Assembly (NCBI GenBank): GCA_035456865.1
Contig: DATICK010000250.1
Span: 1-40,779, forward strand
Reading direction: 5' to 3'
DNA length: 40,779 nucleotides
DNA from: Sulfuricaulis sp.
GTDB taxonomy: Bacteria > Pseudomonadota > Gammaproteobacteria > Acidiferrobacterales > Sulfurifustaceae
The translations under genes were made by a program, and so were the position numbers. The notes under the pieces are model-generated. The model searched no databases, had not been told where the DNA came from, and worked only from the letters and a program-made list of their open reading frames with translations. Shown here one piece after another: positions 1 to 36,937 of this stretch; the stretch's first letter is position 1, and each line of letters opens with the position of its first letter.

Positions 1-958
1 TGGGCTGGCCTTCGGCGATACGGATCTGTTCCTGGACGATGTCCACGCCGGTGATCTGTTCCGTCACGGTGTGTTCCACCTGCAGGCGCGTGTTCATTTC
101 CATGAAATAGAACCGGCCTTCCTGGTCGAACAGGAATTCGACGGTGCCGGCGTTTTCGTAGTTGACGCATCGGGCGGCACGCACGCCCAGCTCGCACACC
201 GCGGCGCGCTGCTCCTCGGTGACCTGGGGTGATGGTGCGATCTCGATCAGCTTCTGATGGCGGCGCTGGATCGAGCAGTCGCGCTCGAACAGGTGAATCA
301 TGTTGCCGTGCTTGTCGCCGAGCACCTGCACCTCGATGTGGCGCGGGTTGAGGAGTGCCTTTTCCAGGAACACGTCGGCGCTGCCGAAGGCCTTGGTGGC
401 TTCGGACACCACGCGCTCGTAGGCGCGGCTCAGTTCGTCTTCGTTGTTGCAGCGGCGGATGCCGCGCCCGCCGCCGCCCGAGGTGGCCTTGAGCATCACC
501 GGGTAACCGATTTTTTTGGCGAGCTTCACCGCCTCGGCCACGTTTTTGAGATTACCCTCGCTGCCGGGCACCACCGGTACGCCGGCGGCGATCATGGCTT
601 CGCGCGCGGCGGTCTTGTCGCCCATGCGACGGATGGCGTCCACGGACGGGCCGATGTAGGTGATCCCGCGCCGCATGCAGACTTCGGTGAGTTGGGGGTT
701 TTCCGAGAGGAAGCCGTAACCGGGATGCAGCGCGTCGCAGCCGGTGGCCACGGCCAGGTTCACGATGCGGTGGGCATTGAGATAGCCGCCGACCGGGTCC
801 GGACCGACGTTGTAGGCTTCGTCGGCTTTTTTGACGTGCAACGCATGACGGTCGGCATCGGTGTAGATGGCGACTGATTTAATGCCCATTTCGGCGCAGG
901 CGCGCACTATGCGTACCGCGATTTCACCGCGGTTGGCAACCAATATCTTTTTGATCAA
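1..958 (-). CDS. pycA: Pyruvate carboxylase subunit A / biotin carboxylase; runs off the left edge
   Basis: Hand translation from TTG at 958 (GGAG upstream) gives MIKKILVANRGEIAVRIVRACAEMGIKSVAIYTDADRHALHVKKADEAY...GCDALHPGYGFLSEN. These are biotin carboxylase motifs, closest in style to Pseudomonas-type PycA. Not in the ORF track because it is truncated. Confidence 0.85.
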   Translation of the reverse strand, partial: MIKKILVANRGEIAVRIVRACAEMGIKSVAIYTDADRHALHVKKADEAYNVGPDPVGGYLNAHRIVNLAVATGCDALHPGYGFLSENPQLTEVCMRRGITYIGPSVDAIRRMGDKTAAREAMIAAGVPVVPGSEGNLKNVAEAVKLAKKIGYPVMLKATSGGGGRGIRRCNNEDELSRAYERVVSEATKAFGSADVFLEKALLNPRHIEVQVLGDKHGNMIHLFERDCSIQRRHQKLIEIAPSPQVTEEQRAAVCELGVRAARCVNYENAGTVEFLFDQEGRFYFMEMNTRLQVEHTVTEQITGVDIVQEQIRIAEGQP

Positions 959-1011
959 GCTGAAAACTCCGCTGAACTGGCCCGGACACTCCCTCGGGGA
1001 ATGCTGCCTTC

Positions 1012-1040
1012 TTTGTACGGAATGGGGCTGGCAGTGTCAA
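1012..1040 (-). promoter_or_regulatory. Putative sigma70 promoter for pycA
   Basis: Minus strand TTGACA (1040-1035), 17 nt, TACAAA (1017-1012). Confidence 0.45.
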
Positions 1041-1077
1041 CCACAACCGCCCGGCTTGCCGCGTCTAAAACCCTATT

Positions 1078-1114
1078 TTGACACAAGTTTGCCGCGAATA
1101 TATGATGCGCCGCC
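1078..1114 (+). promoter_or_regulatory. sigma70 promoter with GC-rich discriminator for the yceD-rpmF-fab operon
   Basis: TTGACA (1078-1083), 17 nt, TATGAT (1101-1106), followed by GCGCCGCC, typical of stringently controlled promoters. Confidence 0.75.
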
Positions 1115-1203
1115 TGTATCCGGCCGGCTGCCGTCGAATTCGCCCGGATGAGAGAGGTCAAGTACCCACCCGGCGCCGGTTTCGCCGCGGGGAAAAGGCG
1201 TAG

Positions 1204-1348
1204 AGAGGGTATCATGTCGCCATCCTGGGAAGTTTCTCGGGACATTTCCGGCGATAGTGCCCGGCTCCCGAGGCGAATGCTCTTTCGGAGACGGGCACAG
1301 GGTCGCCGGAAGGAAAGAGTGTAAGAGGGCATCATGTCGCCATCCTGG
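1204..1348 (+). repeat. Direct repeat of the yceD RBS plus first 5 codons, enclosing a long hairpin
   Basis: AGAGGG(T/C)ATCATGTCGCCATCCTGG at 1204-1228 and 1324-1348 (24/25 identical, 120 nt apart). Hairpin 1246-1311 (TTCCGGCGA/TCGCCGGAA; GTGCCCG/CGGGCAC). Confidence 0.85.
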
Positions 1349-1879
1349 AAAGAGTCACACGGTCATTTACCGGCGACCATAGACCCGATCCAGCTGGCGG
1401 AGAGAGGCGCGCGCCTGACCGGCACGCTCCCGCTGAAGAGCATGCCGCGGCTGATGCAGACGTGTCTGGAAGGCTCGGACGATGTCTACGTCGATCTGCT
1501 CTTCGAGCGCGGTGAGGGCGAGCAGGTATTTCTCATGCATGGGAACCTGCGCGCGCGATTGCACATGACCTGCCAGCGTTGCCTCGAAGGCATGGACCTG
1601 GACGTGGAGGCCGCTCCCTGGTTGATGCTGATGCGACCGGGAAACCGGCGTGACAGGCTCGACGACGAGCCCGACATTCTGGTGGTGGAGAAGCCGCTGC
1701 CGTTGAGCGCACTGGTCGAAGATGAATTGCTGCTGGCGTTGCCGATGGTGCCAACGCATGCGTTGAGTGAATGTCCGGCCGGGACTTACGTGAAGCAAGG
1801 GACGGCCGGCGGCGGAAACCCCGAGGGGAAAAAGAAAAATCCCTTCGCCGCCTTGGACGGATTGAAGAAAACGAGATAG
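1334..1879 (+). CDS. yceD: YceD/DUF177 family protein (23S rRNA accumulation)
   Basis: CQRCL and EDELLLALPMVP motifs, C-terminal NPFAAL, directly upstream of rpmF. Confidence 0.93.
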   Translation: MSPSWKESHGHLPATIDPIQLAERGARLTGTLPLKSMPRLMQTCLEGSDDVYVDLLFERGEGEQVFLMHGNLRARLHMTCQRCLEGMDLDVEAAPWLMLMRPGNRRDRLDDEPDILVVEKPLPLSALVEDELLLALPMVPTHALSECPAGTYVKQGTAGGGNPEGKKKNPFAALDGLKKTR

Positions 1880-1910
1880 TGCCGGTTATTTTACCTGACG
1901 AGGATTTACC

Positions 1911-2093
1911 ATGGCCGTACAGAAAAGCCGAGTATCACCTTCCCGCCGCGGCATGCGTCGTTCACACGACAAGCTGAAGAAGTCGGCGCTTTCGGTTGAC
2001 AAGACGAGCGGCGAAACGCATCGCCGGCATCAGGTCACCGCCGACGGATATTATCGCGGCCGTAAAGTGCTGGACACCAAACCGGAAAATTGA
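1911..2093 (+). CDS. rpmF: 50S ribosomal protein L32
   Basis: [20 protein letters not shown]...GETHRRH..GYYRG. Confidence 0.98.
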
Positions 2094-2293
2094 GGCGGCG
2101 TGTACCTGTTCGATAAAGTTGCTGACCTGAATCCCGTAATCGGGCTTCGTGGTGAGCCGTTTGCCGCCTCAATTTTCGAACAATCATAAATTAATTTCAT
2201 TATTGATCCGGCATGTTGATAATTCCATGAAAGCACCAGAATATTTTTTCGTGCATTTCTTCCTTCAACAAGGTTCATGCCGGATCAATAATG
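2085..2293. repeat. Double-hairpin element, copy 1
   Basis: Perfect 15-bp inverted repeat 2085-2099/2163-2177 (GAAAATTGAGGCGGC) and perfect 18-bp inverted repeat 2198-2215/2276-2293 (CATTATTGATCCGGCATG). Homologous to 6515-6721. Confidence 0.85.
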
Positions 2294-2329
2294 GCGGTTT
2301 GAACCGGAACCGTTCAGGGACTTGAGAAC

Positions 2330-3349
2330 GTGATCACGATTGCCCTCGACGCCATGGGGGGCGATCACGGTGTCGGCGTCACCGTGCCCGCCGCCCTCAA
2401 GACGCTACGCGACGAACCGACGCTGAAGCTGATCTTGGTAGGCCAGCGCGATGCCATCGAAGCCGAATTGAAACACCACCACGCGGCCGAAGGCGAGCGC
2501 CTTGTCATCCATCATGCCTCGGAAGTAGTGGGCATGGATGAACCTCCGGCGCAGGCGCTGCGCGGCAAGAAAGACTCCTCCATGCGCGTGGCCATCAACC
2601 TCGTCAAGGAAGGCGCGGCCCAGGCCGCTGTCTCCGCCGGCAACACCGGGGCGCTCATGGCGACTTCGCGTTTTGTCCTCAAGACCCTGCCCGGGATCGA
2701 CCGTCCGGCTATCGTCACGACACTGCCCACGATGCATGACCACGTGCATATGCTGGACCTTGGCGCCAACGTGGACTGCACGCCGGAGCAACTTCTGCAG
2801 TTCGCCATCATGGGCTCCATTCTGGTCGGCGCTGTCGAGGAAAATCCGCGTCCGCGTGTCGCGTTGCTCAACATTGGCGCGGAAGACATCAAGGGCAACG
2901 AGATCGTCAAAAAGACCCACGAATTGCTTCGCGCCAGTTCGTTGAATTATTGCGGCTATGTCGAGGGCAATGAAATCTACACGGGCAACATGGACGTGAT
3001 CGTGTGTGACGGTTTTGTCGGCAACGTGATGCTCAAGACGAGCGAGGGCCTGGCGCGCATGATCACGCATTTCATGAAGCAGGAATTCCGGCGCAACATC
3101 CTCACGCGACTTTCCGCCCTGGTGGCGATCCCGGTGTTGCACGCTTTCAAGAAGCGCGTGGACCCGCGCCGTTACAACGGCGCCACCTTCATTGGCCTGA
3201 ACGGGATCGTGATCAAAAGCCACGGTGGAGCGGATATCCTGGCCTTCGAACATGCCATTCTCGAAGCGCTGGCGGAGGTAAGCCACAATGTGCCCGAGCG
3301 CATCGGGCGAGAACTGACCGCGATGGCGGCCAAGGGTGCAGTGGCATGA
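2330..3349 (+). CDS. plsX: Phosphate acyltransferase PlsX
   Basis: [26 protein letters not shown] motifs. Confidence 0.97.
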
Positions 3350-3359
3350 GGCGGCGGGC

Positions 3360-4328
3360 ATGATCCATTCGCGCATCATCGGCACCGGCGGCTACCTGCC
3401 GGCCAAGGTGCTCACCAACCACGATCTCGAGAAGATGGTCGAGACGACGGATCAGTGGATTGTCGAGCGCACCGGCATCCGCGAGCGTCACATCGCGGCC
3501 GCGGGCGAAACCAGCGCCTCCATGGGCGAGCAGGCCGCGCGGCGCGCCATCGAGGCGGCTGGCATCAGCACCAAAGACATCGACCTTATCATCGTGGCGA
3601 CCACCACCGCCGATCAGGTATTTCCGAGCACCGCCTGTTTGCTTCAAGACCGCCTGAAGATACATGGTTGCGCGGCGTTTGATGTCCAGGCGGTATGCAC
3701 GGGTTTCGTGTACGCGCTGGGAATCGCGGACAAATTCATCCGCACCGGTTCTGCCAGGCACGCCCTGGTCGTGGGCAGCGAAACCCTGTCGCGCATCACC
3801 GATTGGACCGACCGTGCCACCTGTGTATTGTTTGGCGATGGTGCCGGCGCCGTGGTGCTCGCGGCATCGAAGACCCCCGGCATCATTTCCACGCATCTGC
3901 ATGCCGACGGCAAGTACAAGGACCTGCTCAGCGTTCCCGCCGGAATCTCTCGGGGTTATGACAAGGTCGTCAACGGCACGGCTTATATGAAGATGGAAGG
4001 CAACGAGGTGTTCAAAGTGGCGGTGAACACCCTCGGGCGCATCGTGGACGAAACGCTGGCGGCGAATCACATGAAGAAATCCGATATCCAGTGGCTCGTC
4101 CCGCATCAGGCCAACCACCGTATCATCGCGGCCACCGCGAAGAAACTTGGCATGTCCATGGATCATGTGGTGCAGACGGTGGAACGTCATGGCAATACCT
4201 CGGCGGCTTCTATCCCGCTGGCCTTCGACGAGGCGGTGCGCGACGGGCGCATCAAGCCCGGCGATACCGTGCTGATGGAGGCTTTCGGCGGCGGCTTCAC
4301 ATGGGGCTCGGTGCTTTTGAAGTATTGA
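3360..4328 (+). CDS. fabH: Beta-ketoacyl-ACP synthase III
   Basis: AVCTGF (catalytic Cys), PHQAN, GNTSAAS. Start placed at ATG 3360 ([10 protein letters not shown]). Confidence 0.96.
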
Positions 4329-4332
4329 TTCG

Positions 4333-4436
4333 AACCGCCAGGACGCCAGGATCGGCAAAGAACATCGAAGAAAGAAAACATCTTGAGAAATATTTTTCTT
4401 GAATCTTTTCTTGGCGCTCCTGGCGTCCTGGCGGTT
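4333..4436. repeat. MITE/REP-like palindromic element
   Basis: Perfect 19-bp inverted repeat AACCGCCAGGACGCCAGGA (4333-4351) / TCCTGGCGTCCTGGCGGTT (4418-4436) around a 66-nt AT-rich interior. Confidence 0.8.
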
Positions 4437-4460
4437 TTAAAAATTTAAAATGGTGTTTTT

Positions 4461-5396
4461 ATGAAACTGGCATTCGTTTTTCCCGGACAAGGTTCGCACT
4501 CGGTCGGCATGATGAACGCGCTGGCCGCCGAGTTTCCCGTCGTCAGGCAAACCTTCAGCGAAGCTTCGCAGGCGCTCGGCTACGACCTCTGGCAGGTGGT
4601 GGAGCAGGGACCGGAAGAAAAACTCAATCAAACCGAGGTAACCCAGCCGGCAATGCTGACCGCCGATATCGCCACCTGGCGCGCGTGGCTTGAGAGCAAA
4701 GGCCCGCTGCCACAGGTGATGGCAGGCCACAGCCTCGGCGAATATTCCGCGCTGGTGTGCGCCGAGGCGCTCGATTTTTCCGCTGCCGTGAGACTGGTCG
4801 CGGATCGCGCGCGCTTCATGCAGGAAGCAGTGCCGATCGGACAGGGTGGCATTGCTGCGATTCTGGGTCTGGACGACGATGCCGTGCGCAAACTTTGCGA
4901 ACAGGCAGCCCAGGGTGAGATTCTTGACGCGGTCAATTTCAATTCGCCGAATCAGGTGGTGATCGCCGGGGCCGCGGCGGCCGTGGCCCGCGCCGTGGAG
5001 CAGTCCAAGGCGGCCGGCGCCAAGCGCGCCGTGGTGCTGCCCATGAGCGTACCGGCGCACAGCCGGCTTATGCATCCGGCGGCGCTGCGCATGGCCGAAA
5101 GGATCAAGACCGTGAACGTGCAATCGCCGCGCGTGCCGGTCATTCACAACGTTCATCTGCGGGCGGAATCCGACCCGGAGGAAATTCGAAATGCGCTCGT
5201 GCGCCAGATAGAATCCCCGGTGCGCTGGGTTGAGCTGATCCAGAAAATGGCCGCCGATGGCGTGGACCGGATGGTAGAATGCGGTCCGGGCAAGGTGCTC
5301 GCGGGTCTCAACAAGCGCATCGTCAAGACCTTTGAAACGCTGCCGGTGTACGATCCGGTGACACTGCGCGCGGCGTTGTCGACGCTGACAAATTAG
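4461..5396 (+). CDS. fabD: Malonyl-CoA:ACP transacylase
   Basis: FVFPGQGS, TQPA, GHSLGEY motifs. Confidence 0.97.
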   Translation: MKLAFVFPGQGSHSVGMMNALAAEFPVVRQTFSEASQALGYDLWQVVEQGPEEKLNQTEVTQPAMLTADIATWRAWLESKGPLPQVMAGHSLGEYSALVCAEALDFSAAVRLVADRARFMQEAVPIGQGGIAAILGLDDDAVRKLCEQAAQGEILDAVNFNSPNQVVIAGAAAAVARAVEQSKAAGAKRAVVLPMSVPAHSRLMHPAALRMAERIKTVNVQSPRVPVIHNVHLRAESDPEEIRNALVRQIESPVRWVELIQKMAADGVDRMVECGPGKVLAGLNKRIVKTFETLPVYDPVTLRAALSTLTN

Positions 5397-5412
5397 CAAA
5401 AAGGAAAACAGC

Positions 5413-6156
5413 ATGATTCTGAAAGGCCAAATCGCCCTGGTCACGGGCGCCAGCCGCGGCATCGGGCAGGCGATCGCGCTCGAGCTGGGGCGGCAGGGAG
5501 CCCAGGTGATTGGCACCGCGACATCGAACGATGGAGCGGAAAAAATCACCCAAGCCCTGAAGCAAAATAACGTCGCCGGGAGAGGGATCGTGCTTGACGT
5601 AAACAGCGCCGATTCCATCGCCGCGGCTCTGTCGGAACTGGAAAAATCCAGCGCCACACCGACCATACTGGTCAACAATGCGGGCATCACGCGAGATAAC
5701 CTGTTGCTGCGCATGACCGAAGAGGAGTGGGACGCGATTCTCGATACCAATCTCAAGTCGGTTTACCGGATGACCAAGGCCTGCCTGCGCGCCATGACCA
5801 AGGCGCGCTGGGGACGCATCATCAGCATCAGCTCGGTGGTGGGCGCGATGGGCAACGCCGGACAGGTCAACTATGCTGCCGCCAAGGCCGGCCTGATCGG
5901 CTTCACCAAGGCGCTGGCGCGCGAGGTGGGTTCGCGCAATATCACGGTGAATGCCGTGGCCCCGGGCTTCATCGACACCGACATGACCCGGGCCCTGCCC
6001 GAAGCGCAGAGGGAGGCGCTGCTCAAGCAGATTCCGCTGGGCCGGCTGGGCCGGGCCGAGGAGATCGCCCAAGCCGTGGCGTTCCTCGCCTCGCCGCAGG
6101 CCGGTTATATTACTGGTACAACTTTGCACGTGAATGGCGGAATGTACATGAATTAG
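5413..6156 (+). CDS. fabG: 3-oxoacyl-ACP reductase
   Basis: TGASRGIG, NNAGITRD, YAAAK SDR motifs. Confidence 0.97.
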   Translation: MILKGQIALVTGASRGIGQAIALELGRQGAQVIGTATSNDGAEKITQALKQNNVAGRGIVLDVNSADSIAAALSELEKSSATPTILVNNAGITRDNLLLRMTEEEWDAILDTNLKSVYRMTKACLRAMTKARWGRIISISSVVGAMGNAGQVNYAAAKAGLIGFTKALAREVGSRNITVNAVAPGFIDTDMTRALPEAQREALLKQIPLGRLGRAEEIAQAVAFLASPQAGYITGTTLHVNGGMYMN

Positions 6157-6272
6157 GCGGGGTATCCCGCTGAAAACCATCGTCTGTCGATTGGCTGGAC
6201 GATTTTGGGCAAATGGTGTTAACTATGCGCCCGCACGCGGGCAGTAAATCAATTTTGGAGGGAAAATCACCC

Positions 6273-6509
6273 ATGAGCAGTGTAGAAGAGCGCGTCAAGA
6301 AAATCGTTGTGGAGCAGCTGGGAGTCAATGAAGGCGAGGTCAAGCCCGGGGCTTCTTTTGTGGATGATCTGGGCGCGGATTCCCTGGATACTGTGGAACT
6401 GGTGATGGCGCTGGAAGAGGAATTCGACTGTGAAATTCCCGACGACCAGGCGGAAAAGATCACCACGGTCCAGCAGGCCATTGATTACGTCAATTCCCGT
6501 CTGAACTGA
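6273..6509 (+). CDS. acpP: Acyl carrier protein
   Basis: [20 protein letters not shown]. Start at ATG 6273 after GGAGGG. Confidence 0.98.
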
Positions 6510-6514
6510 TTACT

Positions 6515-6721
6515 CATTATTGCGGCGGCACGAATTCAACTGAACATGCCCGTGGGTTGTTATTTCAACGGCCTTGGGATATCGAAGTCGTTAAGCCGCC
6601 GCAATAATGGAAATCTTAATGAATTTTGTTATTGACCCGGCATGGCAGTGCCGTCACGGGTGCCTGGTAACACCCGTCGCAGCCTGCCTTCATTCAAGCA
6701 CGATAATGCCGGGTCAATAAC
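6515..6721. repeat. Double-hairpin element, copy 2
   Basis: Perfect 15-bp inverted repeat 6515-6529/6595-6609 (CATTATTGCGGCGGC) and perfect 16-bp inverted repeat 6628-6643/6706-6721 (GTTATTGACCCGGCAT). Homologous to 2085-2293. Confidence 0.85.
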
Positions 6722-6723
6722 TG

Positions 6724-6764
6724 GAGGGGCCGTCATCCGCAATGGGTGACGGCCTCTCGGTTTT
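6724..6764 (+). terminator. Probable intrinsic terminator or attenuator between acpP and fabF
   Basis: 15-bp GC-rich stem (2 G-U pairs) GAGGGGCCGTCATCC-gcaat-GGGTGACGGCCTCTC followed by GGTTTT; the U-tract is weak. Confidence 0.55.
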
Positions 6765-6808
6765 ATAAGCGCGGCGGAAACGCCGTGCCCACAATGAGGG
6801 ATTCGTCT

Positions 6809-8053
6809 TTGAGCAAGCGACGCGTCGTCATCACCGGCCTCGGTATCGTTTCTCCCCTCGGCATCGGTGTCGCCGAAAACTGGCGCAACATTCTGGCCGG
6901 TAAAAGCGGTATTACCCGCATCACTCATTTCGATGCCACCGGTTATCCCTCGATGATTGCCGGCGAGGTCAAGAACTTCGACCCCACGCAGTTCGGCATG
7001 ACCGAGAAAGAAGCTCGCCGCATGGACCGCTTCATCCAGCTCGGCATGGCGGCCGGCATCGAGGCAATCAAGGACTCCGGACTGGAAGTGACCGAAGCCA
7101 ACGCCGAGCGCATCGGCGTGCACATCGGTTCCGGCATCGGCGGCGTCGGCACCATCGAGGACACCACCAAAACCGTGCTGGAAAAAGGCCCGCGCCGGGT
7201 TTCTCCTTTTTATGTCCCCATGAGCATCATCAACATGATCTCGGGCGATCTCTCGGTGATGTACGGCCTCAAGGGACCGAATCTCGCCATGGTCAGCGCT
7301 TGCGCCACGGCCACCCATGGCATCGGCGATGCCGGGCGGCTGATCGAATACGGCGACGCCGACGTCATGATCGCCGGCGGCGGTGAGGCCGCTGTCACGC
7401 CAACCGCTGTCGCCGGATTCGGCAACGCCAAGGCGCTGTCCACGTGCAACGACAGCCCGGAAGCCGCCAGCCGTCCGTGGGACAAGGATCGCGATGGTTT
7501 CGTGTTGAGCGAGGGCGCGGGCGTAGTGGTGCTGGAGGAATACGAGCATGCCAAGAAGCGGGGCGCAAAAATATACTGCGAACTGGTCGGCTTCGGCATG
7601 AGCGGCGACGCCTATCACATGACCAGCCCGCCGGAGAACGGCGAGGGCGCGGCGCGTTGCATGCTTAACGCCCTGCGCAACGCCGGGCTCAATCCGGACC
7701 AGGTGCAGTACGTTAACGCCCACGGCACCTCGACGCAGCTTGGTGACCGCGCCGAATCGCTCGCTGCCAAGACCACCTTCGGCGCGCACGCGAGGAAAAT
7801 CGCCATGAGCTCGACCAAATCCATGACCGGCCACCTGCTCGGTGCGGCCGGCGGTGTCGAGGCGATTTATACCGCTCTCGCGGTGCGTGAGCAGATTGCG
7901 CCGCCCACCATCAATCTCACCACGCCCGATCCGGAATGCGATCTGGATTACGTTCCAGGTGCCGCGCGCAAGATGAAGATTGACGTGGCGATTTCCAATT
8001 CCTTCGGTTTCGGCGGCACCAACGGGACACTGGTGTTCCGCAAGCTGGCGTGA
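6809..8053 (+). CDS. fabF: Beta-ketoacyl-ACP synthase II
   Basis: [12 protein letters not shown]-terminus, [25 protein letters not shown] start at 6809 after GAGGG. Confidence 0.96.
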
Positions 8054-9468
8054 ATGCCAACCCGGCCCATACGCTAAACGCTTCCACACCGGGATATGTC
8101 TGCCGCCAATTGGCGGCGATTCCCGATCTCAGCGCGCTTCACGCCCGATTTCCCCAGCGCTATCCGCACCTGCTCACGAGCGTCGCGCGCGGTACGCCGC
8201 GGGCGCGTTATGACATCCTGTTCGCGTTTCCCGGAGACTCCCTGACACTGGACGCGGACCATCGGCTGAGCCGAAACGGTCGATTGTTGGGCACCGATGA
8301 TTTCCTTGATGCTCTTGATCGTGAGTGGAGACAGCAATCCACTACAGTCGATCAGGGCGCTATACCGACGGATGCCGCGCCGCCTTTCACCGGCGGATGG
8401 TTTGTCTTTCTTGGCTACGAATTGGTGTCGCAGATCGAACCAACCGTAACCGGCATTCGGCATGATTCGGCATTTCCGGTGGCCTGTGCCACGCGCATCC
8501 CGGCCGCCATCATCATCGACCATCTCGAGCAGCATACGCTGCTGGTGTGTGAGACCGAACGCGCCAGCGAAATTCTTCCGACGCTCGAGGCCGATATGCA
8601 AAGCCCAACGATAGTGAACGCCGAAGAGATCGCTATCGCGCAGGTTCATGAAGAAGAGCCCGCACGATTTCTGGAACATGTCCGACGGGTGCAGGACTAC
8701 ATCCGTGCGGGGGATGTCTTTCAGGTGAATCTCTCACGTAAGTGGCGAATTTCCCCGCGCGTCTCCGTCAATCCGATATCGCTCTACCGTCGCTTGTGTG
8801 CGACAAATCCGGCGCCTTTTGCGGGCCTGATGACCCTGGGTAACGGGCGCGCCGTCATCAGTTCATCGCCGGAACGCCTGGTGGAAGTGCGCGGCCGAAC
8901 CGTACGCACACGACCCATTGCCGGTACGTATCCGCGCAGCCAGGATCCAAGAGAAGACGAAGCTCTGTCGCGGGACCTGCTGCGACATCCCAAGGAGCGC
9001 GCCGAGCACGTGATGCTCATTGATCTCGAGCGCAACGATCTCGGCCGTGTGTGCCGCACGGGTTCGGTGCAGGTGAAGGAATTCATGGCGCTCGAGTCCT
9101 ACCGGCATGTGCATCACATCGTCTCCGAGGTCAATGGTGAATTACGCGATGACGTCACGCCGGCGCAGGTGATACGCGCCGTGTTCCCGGGCGGAACCAT
9201 CACCGGTTGCCCCAAGGTGCGTTGCATGCAGATCATCGCCGCGCTCGAACAGGCACCGCGTACCGCCTATACCGGGTCCATGGGATATCTCAATCGCGAC
9301 GGCAGTCTCGACATGAATATTCTGATTCGGACCCTCATCCAGAACGGAAACGAAATCAGCCTGCGCGCCGGCGCCGGCATCGTGGCCGATTCCATTCCGG
9401 AGCGGGAGCTGGCCGAGACCCGAGCCAAGGCGAAAGGCATGCTCGCGGCTTTGGGTGTGGCGACATGA
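8050..9468 (+). CDS. pabB: Aminodeoxychorismate synthase component I (chorismate-binding)
   Basis: [51 protein letters not shown]. Next to pabC. Confidence 0.85.
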
Positions 9469-9690
9469 GCAGGGCGCAGGGGCCCAGTGCGAAGCGCGGG
9501 GATGCGACCGCGGCGAATGTCGCCGGCCGCCGACAATTCGATGTTTCAGTCATGTTCGACCTGTCGGAGGCGGCGGGCGTGAGCAGGGAACAGGGGTTCA
9601 ACGCAGCGGGGATGCAACCGTGGCGAATGCCGCCGGACGCCGACGGCATTGCGTGTTGGTCTGGCTCGGCTTCACGGAGGCGGAGTGAGC
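9465..9690 (+). repeat. Two tandem imperfect units (114 and 106 nt) between pabB and pabC
   Basis: Units start at 9465 (ATGAGCAGGG) and 9579 (GTGAGCAGGG), share GCGGGGATGCRACCGYGGCGAATGYCGCCGGMCGCCGAC, and end in GGAGGCGG before the next GTGAGC. Confidence 0.8.
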
Positions 9691-10506
9691 ACAACTCTAA
9701 TTAACGGCGCGCCCGGAGAAAATATTTCGGTTCACGACCGTGGGTTTCAATACGGCGATGGCCTGTTCGAAACCATGGCGGTGGTGAATGGCGCTCCGCT
9801 TTTGTGGGACAGGCACATGCGGCGGTTATTTCATGGCGCCGCAAGACTTGGCATCCCTGCGCCTTCCGAGGGCCTGTTGCGGCATGAAGCAGAGCACCTC
9901 GGTCGCGGCGTCGAGCGTGCCGTGCTGAAGATTATTCTCACGCGCGGTGTTTCCGGACGCGGGTACGCGCCGGAAAAGCAGGCACGGCCGACACGTACCG
10001 TCAGTCTGTCGCCCTGGCCGGATTATCCAGCCGAACGGCGTACGCATGGCGTTGCCGCGCAGTTCTGCCGTACCATGATTTCGCGGAACCCGGCTACGGC
10101 AGGCGTCAAACATCTCAATCGGATCGAGCAGGTGCTGGCACGCGCGGAACTGGAGCAGGATTGCCGGGAGGGTCTGATGTGCAATGAATTCGGTCAGGTA
10201 ATCGCAGGAACCATGACGAATCTGTTCATCGTGTCCCGGGGCAGGCTGCTCACACCGGATCTGTCGCACAGCGGTGTGGAAGGCGTCATGCGCGGGCTGG
10301 TGCTGGAACGGGCGGTAAAACTGTCGCTGGATGCACGCGTGATGGACATCAACAAGAGCGATGTTTTGCTGGCGGATGAAGTGTTTCTGACCAATAGCCT
10401 GATAGGTTTATGGCCGGTGCGTCGCATCGAAACGAAGGAATTTCCCTTGGGCAGGATAACGCAACGAGTTCAGGAGGCCATTGTCGATGCGTACGCGGCT
10501 GATTAG
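9685..10506 (+). CDS. pabC: Aminodeoxychorismate lyase
   Basis: DRGFQYGDGLFET, GVKHLNR, ADEVFLTNS (class IV aminotransferase fold). GTG start at 9685 after GGAGG. Confidence 0.92.
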   Translation: MSTTLINGAPGENISVHDRGFQYGDGLFETMAVVNGAPLLWDRHMRRLFHGAARLGIPAPSEGLLRHEAEHLGRGVERAVLKIILTRGVSGRGYAPEKQARPTRTVSLSPWPDYPAERRTHGVAAQFCRTMISRNPATAGVKHLNRIEQVLARAELEQDCREGLMCNEFGQVIAGTMTNLFIVSRGRLLTPDLSHSGVEGVMRGLVLERAVKLSLDARVMDINKSDVLLADEVFLTNSLIGLWPVRRIETKEFPLGRITQRVQEAIVDAYAAD

Positions 10507-11530
10507 GCCGGCAATCGGCTTGCTGGTGGTGAGCGCCGTGGCCGCCGTTTATCTATTATGGTCGTGGAATCATTCACTTCTGCCCGGCATGGAGATTTAT
10601 GCGGTCAAGCCGGGCATGACGCTGCGCGCTTTTGCACGCGAGCTGAGCAGCCGTGACGTGCTGCCGGAAAGCCATTCTTTCGTGTGGCTGGCGTATCTTA
10701 CCGGGCATCAACGTGACTTGAAGACAGGGGAGTACCGGTTCCGCAACGGAATGACGGCAAGGGAATTGCTGGACCAGATCGTCGCGGGGCGTGTTGTTGA
10801 ATATCCCCTCGTGCTGGTGGAGGGCTGGACCTTCCGGCAGTTTCTGGATGCGATCGAGGAGGCGCCCAAGCTTACGCGCACGCTCACTGGTTTGTCGCCA
10901 CGCGCCATCATGGAAAGGCTGGGCCATCAAGGAGAGCATCCCGAGGGCCGGTTTTTCCCCGATACATATTATTATTCCTCCGGCCAGACGGAACTCGCGA
11001 TCCTGGCCAACGCCTATGACAAAATGCAGAAGCTGTTGCAGCAGGAATGGGAAAAGCGCGACAACAATCTCCCGTTCAAGGATCCCTACGAAGCGCTGAT
11101 ACTGGCCTCGATCGTGGAAAAAGAAACCGGACGCGCCGATGAACGCCGTATGATCGCCGGTGTCTTCGTCAACCGTTTGCGCCACGGCATGCGGCTGCAA
11201 ACGGACCCGACCGTGATTTACGGCATGGGTGAGTCGTTCGACGGCAACCTGCGGCTTAAGGACCTCAGACGCGACACACCCTATAATACGTACACTCGTC
11301 ACGGTCTGCCGCCCACGCCGGTGGCCATGCCAGGGAAGGAATCGTTACAGGCCGTGATGCATCCGGTGATTACCGGAGCCCTGTATTTTGTCGCTCGCGG
11401 CGATGGAAGCCACGATTTTTCCAGTACACTGGAAGAACACAACAAAGCCGTGATCAAATACCAGCTGAAAGGAAAGCCGCGGACTTCGGTAACGCGCGAT
11501 AAGACGTCCACTGCCATGACAAGCCGGTAA
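10487..11530 (+). CDS. mltG: Endolytic transglycosylase MltG (YceG)
   Basis: EGRFFPDTY, ASIVEKET, LQTDPTVIYG, PYNTY..GLPPTP; N-terminal TM segment. Confidence 0.96.
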   Translation: MRTRLIRPAIGLLVVSAVAAVYLLWSWNHSLLPGMEIYAVKPGMTLRAFARELSSRDVLPESHSFVWLAYLTGHQRDLKTGEYRFRNGMTARELLDQIVAGRVVEYPLVLVEGWTFRQFLDAIEEAPKLTRTLTGLSPRAIMERLGHQGEHPEGRFFPDTYYYSSGQTELAILANAYDKMQKLLQQEWEKRDNNLPFKDPYEALILASIVEKETGRADERRMIAGVFVNRLRHGMRLQTDPTVIYGMGESFDGNLRLKDLRRDTPYNTYTRHGLPPTPVAMPGKESLQAVMHPVITGALYFVARGDGSHDFSSTLEEHNKAVIKYQLKGKPRTSVTRDKTSTAMTSR

Positions 11531-13250
<1,720 letters not shown>

Positions 13251-13679: not shown

Positions 13680-13779
13680 GAGGCGATCTCAAAAATTCTC
13701 CATCATCTGGCAGCTTGGGGTTATTACACGAACGAACGGTGTTGTGGCACCATAACGCGATCATTTTTGAGATCGCTTC
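13680..13779. repeat. MITE-like palindromic element
   Basis: Perfect 14-bp inverted repeat GCGATCTCAAAAAT (13683-13696) / ATTTTTGAGATCGC (13763-13776), extendable by 3 pairs, with a 66-nt interior. CGTGA occurs at both ends (13677, 13779). Confidence 0.75.
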
Positions 13780-36546: not shown

Positions 36547-36812
36547 GAGAAAAAGCGGCCCTGCTGTATGCGCGCGAGCTGGTCGTCGTCCGGTACCACG
36601 GCGAGTTTCAGCCCCACTGCCCGTGCCAGCCGATCGATGAGCGCAAAGTCCGCGGTGCCGCGGCTTTTCATGCGGCTCAGAGTCTCGGGCCGCACGCCGG
36701 CCAGCCGGGCCAGTTCCTTTTCTTTGAGCTTGCGGGACTCGGCAGCGGCCAGGATGGCATTCAGTGTGGACCGAACCGACTCAATGTTGCCTTGGGGTTT
36801 AATATTGATCAT
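36543..36812 (-). CDS. XRE/Cro-type HTH protein, probable HipB-like antitoxin
   Basis: LKEKELARLAGVRPETLSRM HTH; ATGA overlap with the HipA-like gene. Confidence 0.8.
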   Translation of the reverse strand: MINIKPQGNIESVRSTLNAILAAAESRKLKEKELARLAGVRPETLSRMKSRGTADFALIDRLARAVGLKLAVVPDDDQLARIQQGRFFS

Positions 36813-36878
36813 ATGATCAATATTAATAAGATATTGATCTATATGTCAATATAAATATATAAATGACTATATAGTCAA
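36799..36878. promoter_or_regulatory. Three palindromic operators overlapping the HTH-HipA promoter
   Basis: TTGATCATATGATCAA (36805), TTGATCTATATGTCAA (36834), ATGACTATATAGTCAA (36863). Minus strand TTGACA-18-TAATAT, then 7 nt, then ATG. Confidence 0.75.
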
Positions 36879-36937
36879 TAATAATGAGATGTCAGATATA
36901 TGAAGTATTTATATTATTTTTCAATCAGATATGCATA

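What the first reader, a model, noticed from the sequence alone, without database searches (positions are those of the whole stretch)
2085..2293. Repeated ~208-nt double-hairpin element with covarying stems and unrelated ~65-nt loops (copy 1, after rpmF)
Seen: this region and 6515-6721 share one architecture, ATTG-N-GGCGGC [63-65 nt] GCCGCC-N-CAAT, an AT-rich linker, then TTATTGA-Y-CCGGC [66 nt] GCCGG-R-TCAATAA. The central junctions align closely: GCCGCCTCAATTTTCGAACAATCATAAATTAATTTCATTATTGATCCGGCATG versus GCCGCCGCAATAATGGAAATCTTAATGAATTTTGTTATTGACCCGGCATG. Stem differences between the copies are compensatory (A-T to C-G in stem 1; T-A to C-G in stem 2; outer GAAAA/TTTTC versus CATTA/TAATG). 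By eye the four loops share no sequence but have nearly constant length and contain sub-hairpins. Both copies directly follow small, normally highly expressed genes, and copy 1 overlaps the rpmF stop codon. Inference: a fixed scaffold with variable loops suggests a structured RNA or ssDNA substrate, such as an uncharacterised ncRNA or guide-like RNA, a REPIN-like element, a recombination cassette site or an RNase III processing module. I do not recognise the family.
Basis: partly seen in the sequence, partly recalled or inferred. Interest (0 to 1): 0.85.

Follow-up and report, generated by a model that had tools for sequence, protein, structure and literature searches.

The report
Double-hairpin IS630-type miniature transposon
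The two repeats are copies of a gene-less, 200-base piece of jumping DNA that sits between duplicated TA bases in about twenty places in this genome; its ends match those of a common IS630-family transposon that likely moved it, and its one unusual feature is a second, inner pair of shortened ends that folds it into two hairpins.

Summary
The double hairpin is real (fold z-scores -7.8 and -7.4), but it is not a scaffold with unrelated guide loops. It is a miniature inverted-repeat transposable element (MITE) of 198-199 bp, TTG...CAA, flanked by a duplicated TA. There are 17-19 full copies in this genome and matches in 19 of 20 same-genus genomes; Nevskiales carry it too. Relatives show empty sites at both window loci (13 of 17; 18 of 21). 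A metagenome scan for the outer end, TA|TTGA..CGGC-N10-TTGAA, recovered the likely mover: 1.11-1.14-kb IS630-family elements with the same ends (12 complete copies). No such transposase was found in this genome. The loops are diverged homologues that drift at or below the neutral rate and are sometimes inverted. The unusual part is an inner pair of 13-15-bp arms that copy each terminus without the TTGAA box. The stems stay paired after insertion, even 2-3 bases into host DNA, and mismatches are fixed from either side. This points to template switching plus selection for pairing; RNA processing is untested. The architecture resembles Caulobacter CIR repeats, whose mover was unknown in the review read. 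Verdict: new variant of a known kind, modest interest.

The parts
1911..2093 (+). rpmF (L32); its original TAG stop was the insertion target and the element now supplies a TGA stop, adding one Asn codon
2088..2089 (.). left target-site duplication of copy 1 (TA, here changed to AA)
   Evidence: an RNA contig of a relative skips 201 bases here with 2 letters fitting both sides
2090..2288 (+). MITE copy 1, 199 bp, TTG...CAA
2090..2114 (+). outer left terminal inverted repeat, TTGAGGCGGC-N10-box; the box is decayed (TCGAT for TTGAA)
2100..2162 (+). loop A, diverged internal sequence
2163..2177 (+). inner arm A': inverted copy of the left terminus plus 5 bases that match the left flank; no TTGAA box
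2178..2197 (+). AT-rich, weakly palindromic linker
2198..2215 (+). inner arm B: inverted copy of the right terminus plus flank-matching bases; no TTGAA box
2216..2275 (+). loop B (holds the TTCAA box of the right end at 2264-2268)
2264..2288 (-). outer right terminal inverted repeat, TTGATCCGGC-N10-TTGAA, identical to the IS630 end consensus at all 15 conserved positions
2289..2290 (.). right target-site duplication of copy 1 (TA)
2330..3349 (+). plsX, next gene downstream of copy 1
   Evidence: ORF; name from recall
6273..6509 (+). acpP, gene upstream of copy 2
   Evidence: ORF; name from recall
6518..6519 (.). left target-site duplication of copy 2 (TA)
   Evidence: an RNA contig of a relative skips 200 bases, 2 letters fitting both sides
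6520..6717 (+). MITE copy 2, 198 bp
6520..6544 (+). outer left terminal inverted repeat of copy 2, TTGCGGCGGC-N10-CTGAA
6595..6609 (+). inner arm A' of copy 2; its last base (G) is changed from the family's C and pairs with the ancestral host C at 6515
6628..6643 (+). inner arm B of copy 2
6693..6717 (-). outer right terminal inverted repeat of copy 2, TTGACCCGGC-N10-TTGAA
6718..6719 (.). right target-site duplication of copy 2 (TA)
6724..6758 (+). host terminator-like hairpin, present in empty alleles too, not part of the element
6809..8053 (+). fabF, gene downstream of copy 2
   Evidence: ORF; name from recall

Best explanation
The repeat is a gene-less miniature transposon of 198-199 bp inserted at TA sites, likely moved by a borrowed IS630-family transposase whose own element has the same ends. 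Shown: many copies, filled and empty sites in relatives, a duplicated TA, and 25-bp bipartite outer ends (TTGA..CGGC-N10-TTGAA) shared with complete IS630-family elements. Inferred: the transposase binds the two outer ends, cuts the element out and pastes it into a (T)TA(A) site, as shown in vitro for the IS630-family element ISY100. Shown: each end has an inner inverted copy of its last 13-15 bases that lacks the TTGAA box, so single strands can fold into two local hairpins. Inferred: the inner arms are not transposase-binding ends. After insertion the loops and the TTGAA boxes drift, while the stems stay paired and extend 2-3 bases into host DNA. Likely causes are polymerase template switching between the arms (which would also invert loops) and selection against broken pairs. 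Most copies in this genome are probably old and no longer mobile.
For: Empty sites: rpmF-plsX filled in 4 of 17 same-genus genomes and empty in 13, plus 9 of 9 other genomes of the order; acpP-fabF filled in 3 of 21; 26 of 64 scored relative loci were empty in G000 (several being the same locus). TA duplication: exact at L093 and at acpP; TA at the aligned place in 9 of 15 well-aligned empty sites. Partner: 34 of 62 metagenome loci with a lone end hit one transposase; NF033545 IS630 at 238 and 241 bits, cut-off 100; 12 complete elements of 1114-1138 bp, one from a Ralstonia plasmid found by BLAST, not by the pattern. TTGAA box at the exact place in 35 and 42 of 55 outer ends but 1 and 1 of 55 inner arms. 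Genome G571 holds both IS ends on broken contigs and a double-hairpin copy whose left end shares its first 17 bases with them. ISY100: 24-bp ends bound by two helix-turn-helix motifs, TA target (PMC2170065, passages). Template switching homogenises arms and inverts spacers (PMC8604942, passages); 7 of 240 loops have the box only at the inner end.
Against: No cognate transposase was found in G000 (genome 84% complete) or in 42 genomes of its family at E 1e-40; the nearest are broken copies in two genomes of other families of the order. None of the 28 IS630 loci fetched from relatives and Nevskiales carried these ends. The left end reads GAGG or GCGG where the IS has GATC; no transposase-bearing element with that end was seen. 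The TTGAA box in the IS set is partly there by construction, since the pattern asked for it. 6 of 15 empty sites lack TA at the aligned place. Template switching alone should give many two-sided stem changes, but 50 were one-sided and 5 two-sided, so selection or survivor bias must contribute. Mobility was not shown by experiment.
Confidence: 0.85

Rival explanations
1. Same origin, but the host now keeps the two stems as RNA-processing modules (RNase III sites or stabilising hairpins) that uncouple genes in operons such as rpmF-plsX and acpP-fabF. This adds to the best explanation rather than replacing it.
For: Arms differ by 2-9% between orthologous copies whatever the distance, loops by 4-41%, four-fold sites by 12-43%. 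At the two loci found by gene order alone, arms differ at 0-4 of 46 sites while loops differ at up to 29 of 124. The TTGAA boxes decay like loops (15-18% in 14 less-biased pairs). Convergent positions are rare (3 of 81). RNase III cuts Correia-element stems in mRNA (PMC10969869, passages).
Against: No excess of G-U over A-C mismatches on the transcribed strand (29 against 27). No fixed orientation to transcription (27 against 19). Most relatives lack each insertion, so no site needs it. Copies were found by models that weight the arms, so survivor bias is possible outside the two gene-order loci.
Confidence: 0.3
2. The inner arms take part in integration: they pair with the target and bias site choice, or rewrite 2-3 flanking bases during insertion (a short DNA guide in a DDE transposon).
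For: Flank and inner arm covary with a sharp edge: second and third host bases on the left 46 and 47 of 55 (shuffled 31.5, 33.0), fourth 13 (12.2); first and second on the right 50 and 52 of 55 (42.2, 28.1), third 15 (12.8). Two empty sites already match variant inner arms exactly (L093, L469).
Against: Empty sites match the inner arm at 49 of 75 positions, filled ones at 68 of 75. At acpP the same mismatch was fixed in the flank in G004 and G005 and in the inner arm in G000, which must postdate insertion. The 24 Nevskiales loci (7 copies in one genome 91% alike) show no clear excess (14 against 12.4; 10 against 7.0; 10 against 7.7), though their inner arms vary little, so power is low.
Confidence: 0.08
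3. An uncharacterised ncRNA or guide-RNA family with a fixed scaffold and variable, programmable loops.
For: Strong predicted folding; covarying stems; near-constant loop length within the genus.
Against: Loops are homologous and drift at or below neutral rates; loops can be inverted; both strands fold alike (alifold -47.0 and -46.9); no Rfam match; no phage or plasmid match; no partner gene nearby; TA duplication and IS630-type ends.
Confidence: 0.04
4. A REPIN-like element moved by a RAYT (HUH) transposase, or a recombination cassette site.
For: Intergenic, multi-copy, paired inverted arms about 65 nt apart.
Against: The arms are not self-complementary hairpins with a GTAG-type foot (sequence; REP features recalled); copies avoid convergent gene ends; the TA duplication and IS630 end match explain mobility. 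RAYT genes were not searched for.
Confidence: 0.03

Closest known systems
TA-duplicating bacterial MITEs tied to IS630: RUP of Streptococcus pneumoniae (IS630-Spn1), with Correia/NEMIS and ERIC as kin (PMC2229807, parts 1-2 of 3 read)
   Same: 100-200 bp, no coding role, intergenic, TA at both ends, terminal repeats that match an autonomous IS630-family element, filled and empty sites
   Different: Those fold as one long stem by pairing the two ends. Here each end pairs with its own inner copy, giving two hairpins, and the stems reach into host DNA. No sequence relation was tested or is claimed.
CIR1-4 repeats of Caulobacter and Brucella (Chen and Shapiro 2003, seen only through the review PMC2229807; the original is not held)
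   Same: Two long inverted-repeat arms joined by a linker, TA at the termini, strictly intergenic
   Different: CIRs are about 110 bp, alphaproteobacterial, defined by a conserved GANTC site at a terminal loop, and the review lists no terminal inverted repeat and no known mover. This element is 200 bp, has 60-65-nt loops, has true terminal repeats and a matching IS630-family element.
IS630-family elements of the L301/L323 clade, related to IS1471 (54% protein identity) and to unnamed elements of Ralstonia megaplasmids and Xanthomonas oryzae
   Same: Ends TA|TTGATCCGGC-N10-TTGAA
   Different: They are 1.11-1.14 kb, encode a 344-352-aa transposase and have no inner arms.
Template-switch homogenisation of short inverted repeats (PMC8604942, passages)
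   Same: Arm matching in either direction and spacer inversion
   Different: Described there for yeast genes with 2-5-bp spacers; here 60-65-nt loops of a mobile element, and mostly one-sided stem changes.

Membership tests
IS630/Tc1/mariner-mobilised MITE | short element (50-800 bp) without a transposase gene | tested here: met
   198-199 bp; only short chance-length frames overlap it
IS630/Tc1/mariner-mobilised MITE | terminal inverted repeats of at least 10-15 bp | tested here: met
   25-bp imperfect, bipartite repeats at both outer ends
IS630/Tc1/mariner-mobilised MITE | TA target-site duplication | tested here: met
   9 of 15 well-aligned empty sites have TA at the aligned place
IS630/Tc1/mariner-mobilised MITE | ends match those of an autonomous IS630-family element | tested here: met
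   the right end matches best, the left end differs at 2-3 of the first 10 bases
IS630/Tc1/mariner-mobilised MITE | dispersed copies with filled and empty sites | tested here: met
IS630/Tc1/mariner-mobilised MITE | cognate transposase in the same genome | tested here: inconclusive
   not found in G000 or 42 family genomes (drafts often lose IS copies); found together with a double-hairpin copy in G571
IS630/Tc1/mariner-mobilised MITE | mobilisation by that transposase | not testable with these tools
   needs a transposition assay
CIR repeats | two inverted-repeat arms joined by a linker, TA termini, intergenic | tested here: met
CIR repeats | conserved GANTC site at a terminal loop | tested here: not met
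   the family consensus has GAATC next to stem A, inside the outer terminal repeat, not at a terminal loop; copy 2 reads GAATT there
CIR repeats | about 110 bp, sequence similarity to CIR1-4 | not tested
REP/REPIN-RAYT | short self-palindromic REP with a GTAG-type foot (recalled) | tested here: not met
   arms TTGAGGCGGC and TTGACCCGGC pair only with a partner 60-65 nt away
REP/REPIN-RAYT | RAYT gene flanked by the repeats | not tested
   no RAYT search run; no recurring neighbour gene at 85 loci
Guide or bridge RNA systems (IS110 and the like) | variable loops that match targets; dedicated enzyme gene beside the RNA (recalled) | tested here: not met
   loops homologous; no phage or plasmid match; no recurring neighbour
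Rfam families | match to a curated model | tested here: not met
   window 1-12000, nothing on either copy at E up to 1

The most novel reading that the evidence does not exclude
The inner arms are working parts: they let a DDE-type miniature transposon fold each end onto an internal copy and so choose, or rewrite, the 2-3 host bases beside its TA target. That would be a short base-pairing guide in the IS630/Tc1/mariner superfamily, and it would also explain two-armed repeats such as CIR.
Probability: 0.08. Interest if true: 0.75.

Novelty: new variant of a known kind. Interest (0 to 1): 0.36.

Why it matters
As filed, it is one more selfish repeat, but a clean case. It ties a two-armed intergenic repeat to a named class of transposase, which the review of such repeats (2007) lists as open for CIR. 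It supplies many independent, dated insertions in which one can watch inverted repeats being corrected and inverted. It also warns RNA-motif screens that covarying stems with variable loops can come from a dead transposon. If the host keeps the stems for RNA processing, the element has rewired core operons (fatty-acid synthesis here). If the inner arms steer integration, that would be new for this transposon superfamily.

Tried and rejected
Rfam: no match on either copy. Viral scans: the one junction hit lies inside a terminase gene; the 42 single-end hits have no partner arm and best E 0.011 to the element model; both read as chance. IS630 loci found by Pfam PF13358 in relatives and five Nevskiales-type genomes: none of 28 had these ends. 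A long 'linker' in G042 (L192) held no plausible transposase frame. Neighbour-gene clustering over 85 loci found only orthologous neighbours and shadow frames. The class-wide scan of 401 genomes used a pattern too narrow for the 66-nt loop and the CCC variant; it found 1 of about 20 copies in G000 itself and says nothing on range. Phage and plasmid BLAST of both copies: best E 0.7. RNA runs: eight small-share runs, four laid; all are contigs of relatives. Three bridge the rpmF site and one the acpP site without the element; two carry the same six letters as the empty DNA allele of G004, so they are empty alleles, not splicing. They say nothing on RNA ends. Promoter scan: two 9-of-12 matches in copy 1, none in copy 2; not used. 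A third hairpin in the linker is weak (mean -1.9 kcal/mol against -0.7 shuffled; absent from the consensus fold); it may set the edge of the flank matching but this is not shown. Integron attC was rejected on the recalled core consensus. Two records titled Bacteroidota and Methylomirabilis carry genus-type copies; titles may be misassigned, so they were not used for range. Rows dropped: 2 of 44 references with mis-cut ends and 5 elements with inverted loops were left out of alignment A2; linkers over 35 nt were left out of linker tests.

Full report
Observation. Both copies are in the sequence as described. A scan of the whole genome for perfect long-loop inverted repeats gives stems of 15 and 18 bp for copy 1 and 15 and 16 bp for copy 2. 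Both fold as two hairpins, with z-scores of -7.79 and -7.43 against 200 shuffles. Rfam has no match on either. The claim that the loops are unrelated fails once more copies are seen.

A dispersed family. The genome (G000, 2.44 Mb, 84% complete) holds 17 full pairs by pattern and 19 full-length profile hits at E 1e-6, plus single or decayed units. A sequence-only model built from 42 relative copies matches 19 of 20 same-genus genomes and 27 of 42 family genomes. A strict junction pattern gave 85 loci in the genome collection. Their titles are mostly Sulfuricaulis and Ca. Muproteobacteria, so the window is likely Sulfuricaulis (inference); a second group is Solimonas, Panacagrimonas, Hydrocarboniphaga and Stenotrophobium, with the same arms and often a shorter loop B. 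Across 55 independent loci the loops align with each other (mean scores 27.1 and 28.2) far better than with shuffles (6.7 and 7.4). Paralogues are 71% alike in G000 and 91% alike among 7 Panacagrimonas copies.

It is an insertion with a TA duplication. The rpmF-plsX spacer is filled in 4 of 17 same-genus genomes and empty in 13; the 9 other genomes of the order are empty. The target was the TAG stop codon of rpmF; the element now supplies a TGA. The acpP-fabF spacer is filled in 3 of 21 genomes; close empty alleles read CTCAT-TA-(A/G)ATGG and the filled one CTCAT-TA-[TTG...CAA]-TA-ACTGG. Of 64 scored relative loci, 26 were empty in G000, 18 filled, 12 had one flank only and 8 were unclear. In 15 well-aligned independent empty sites, 9 have TA at the aligned place. 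RNA contigs of relatives skip 201 and 200 bases at the two window sites with two letters fitting both sides; these are empty alleles. The element is therefore 2090-2288 and 6520-6717.

The likely mover. Both outer ends share the motif TA|TTGA..CGGC-N10-TTGAA. IS630 loci pulled from relatives by Pfam did not carry it (0 of 28). A metagenome scan for the motif (it stopped after 9 of 64 parts, 122 loci) gave 126 ends: 66 lone, 42 with a nearby partner arm, 18 cut short. 34 of the 62 loci with a lone end hit one transposase; the other 28 are longer MITEs or chance hits in genes. L301 and L323 are complete elements with inward-facing ends and one 347-352-aa frame, scored as IS630 transposase (NF033545, 238 and 241 bits, cut-off 100; DDE_3 and helix-turn-helix domains). 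Twelve complete copies are 1114-1138 bp, with end consensus TA|TTGATCCGGC-N10-TTGAA (the box was required by the pattern, so its count there is no test). One copy came from a Ralstonia plasmid by BLAST. IS1471 is a 54% relative with a like right end, and the clade is large (4979 proteins at E 1e-100 among 7999 scored). The same metagenome sample holds 20 double-hairpin and 22 single-hairpin derivatives. G571, drawn from the family of the Panacagrimonas genome, has IS ends on broken contigs and a double-hairpin copy whose left end shares 17 bases with them. Against this, no cognate transposase was found in G000 or in 42 family genomes at E 1e-40, and no element with the GAGG/GCGG left end and a transposase was seen. 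ISY100 shows what such ends do: 24-bp repeats bound by two helix-turn-helix motifs, cut and pasted into TA (PMC2170065, passages). That this transposase moves this element is inference.

What is unusual. Each end has an inner inverted copy of its last 13-15 bases, TA included. The TTGAA box is at the exact place in 35 and 42 of 55 outer ends and in 1 and 1 of 55 inner arms. In 120 elements, 7 loops have the box only at the inner end, that is, the loop is inverted; one orthologous pair (G000 C10 and L005) differs in this way. The stems extend into host DNA. On the left the second and third host bases pair with the inner arm in 46 and 47 of 55 loci (shuffled 31.5 and 33.0) and the fourth in 13 (12.2). 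On the right the first and second pair in 50 and 52 (42.2 and 28.1) and the third in 15 (12.8). The 24 Nevskiales loci show no clear excess. Empty sites match the inner arm at 49 of 75 positions, filled flanks at 68 of 75; filled and empty flanks differ more near the TA than beside it, but not significantly (54 of 75 against 146 of 180 alike, P 0.13). The clearest case is copy 2: 17 of 18 empty alleles have C three bases left of the TA and none has G. G004 and G005 changed that host base to G, while G000 kept C and changed the inner arm. At rpmF, where the flank is coding, the inner arm was changed. So matching arises after insertion and from either side.

Why the stems last. Between orthologous copies the arms differ by 2-9% at all distances, loops by 4-41%, and four-fold sites of neighbouring genes by 12-43%. 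In 14 pairs with a member missed by the exact pattern, arms differ by 2-8%, TTGAA boxes by 15-18% and loops by 20-24%; some of these pairs may not be true orthologues, and profile searches favour intact arms. The five pairs at the two gene-order loci show the same trend. Template switching is known to homogenise arms and invert spacers, and short inverted repeats of proteobacteria are reported to be more conserved than their surroundings (PMC8604942, passages). It fits the two-way correction and the inversions. But 50 stem changes were one-sided and 5 two-sided, and switching alone would not slow the arms, so selection for pairing, or loss of copies with broken stems, is also likely. An RNA-level cause is not shown: G-U is not favoured on the transcribed strand (29 against 27) and orientation is mixed (27 against 19). 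RNase III does cut Correia stems in mRNA (PMC10969869, passages), so the idea stays open.

Comparison and novelty. It meets every testable feature of an IS630-linked MITE, like RUP (PMC2229807, parts 1-2 of 3 read). In shape it resembles the CIR repeats, two arms and a linker with TA ends, for which that review names no terminal repeat and no mover; it is not a CIR by length, lineage or GANTC placement. Nine literature searches showed no description of this family in the listings. A MITE census of 183,232 genomes does not name these taxa in its main text (passages), but its supplements were closed and may list the copies. Most subscription papers and ISfinder were not searchable. Earlier notes of this scan had nothing on this sequence; word search gave look-alike reports from other genomes, not checked here. 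Gene names (rpmF, plsX, acpP, fabF) are from recall of the translations.

Verdict. A new architectural variant of a known kind of selfish element, with its likely transposase identified. Interest 0.36; the guide-like role for the inner arms is not excluded but unlikely (0.08).

Noticed in passing
window 4333-4436: A second long-loop inverted-repeat family (arms of the AACCGCCAAGACGCCAAG type around an AT-rich loop) between fabH and fabD; 48 arm matches in G000. Its mover was not sought.
   Followed up: partly
window 36802-36886: Three AT-rich, self-complementary boxes of about 27 nt at 29-nt spacing in a very AT-rich spacer; they look like tandem operators of a regulator.
   Followed up: no
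window 13683-13776: A 14-bp perfect inverted repeat around a 66-nt loop, unrelated in sequence to the element.
   Followed up: no
window 1204-1232 and 1324-1352; 9496-9534 and 9606-9644: Two pairs of short direct repeats 120 and 110 bases apart; the first pair duplicates the start of the gene at 1334.
   Followed up: no
G000 C283:17118-17221: A 104-bp inverted repeat with CTAG-type ends, possibly a MITE of another IS630 clade.
   Followed up: no
G000 C153:2746-2987: A copy of the element with a different 43-nt repeat inserted in its linker; G004 and G005 have the same copy without it.
   Followed up: partly
L194:835-938 (G042) and G000 C159:6716-6819: Single-hairpin hybrids with one A end and one B end, as expected from deletion between the inner and outer arms.
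   Followed up: partly
L424 (G005), acpP-fabF copy: Mosaic: loop A is close to G004's, loop B is close to G000's (2 of 62 differences), so loops seem to be exchanged by recombination at the arms.
   Followed up: partly
L275, L282, L294, L336, L393 and others: Single-hairpin MITEs with the same IS630 ends, several carrying another common repeat inside; also a 47-bp form (L334, L374, L389).
   Followed up: no
L188: A Nevskiales-type copy sits inside the spacer of what looks like a REP doublet.
   Followed up: no
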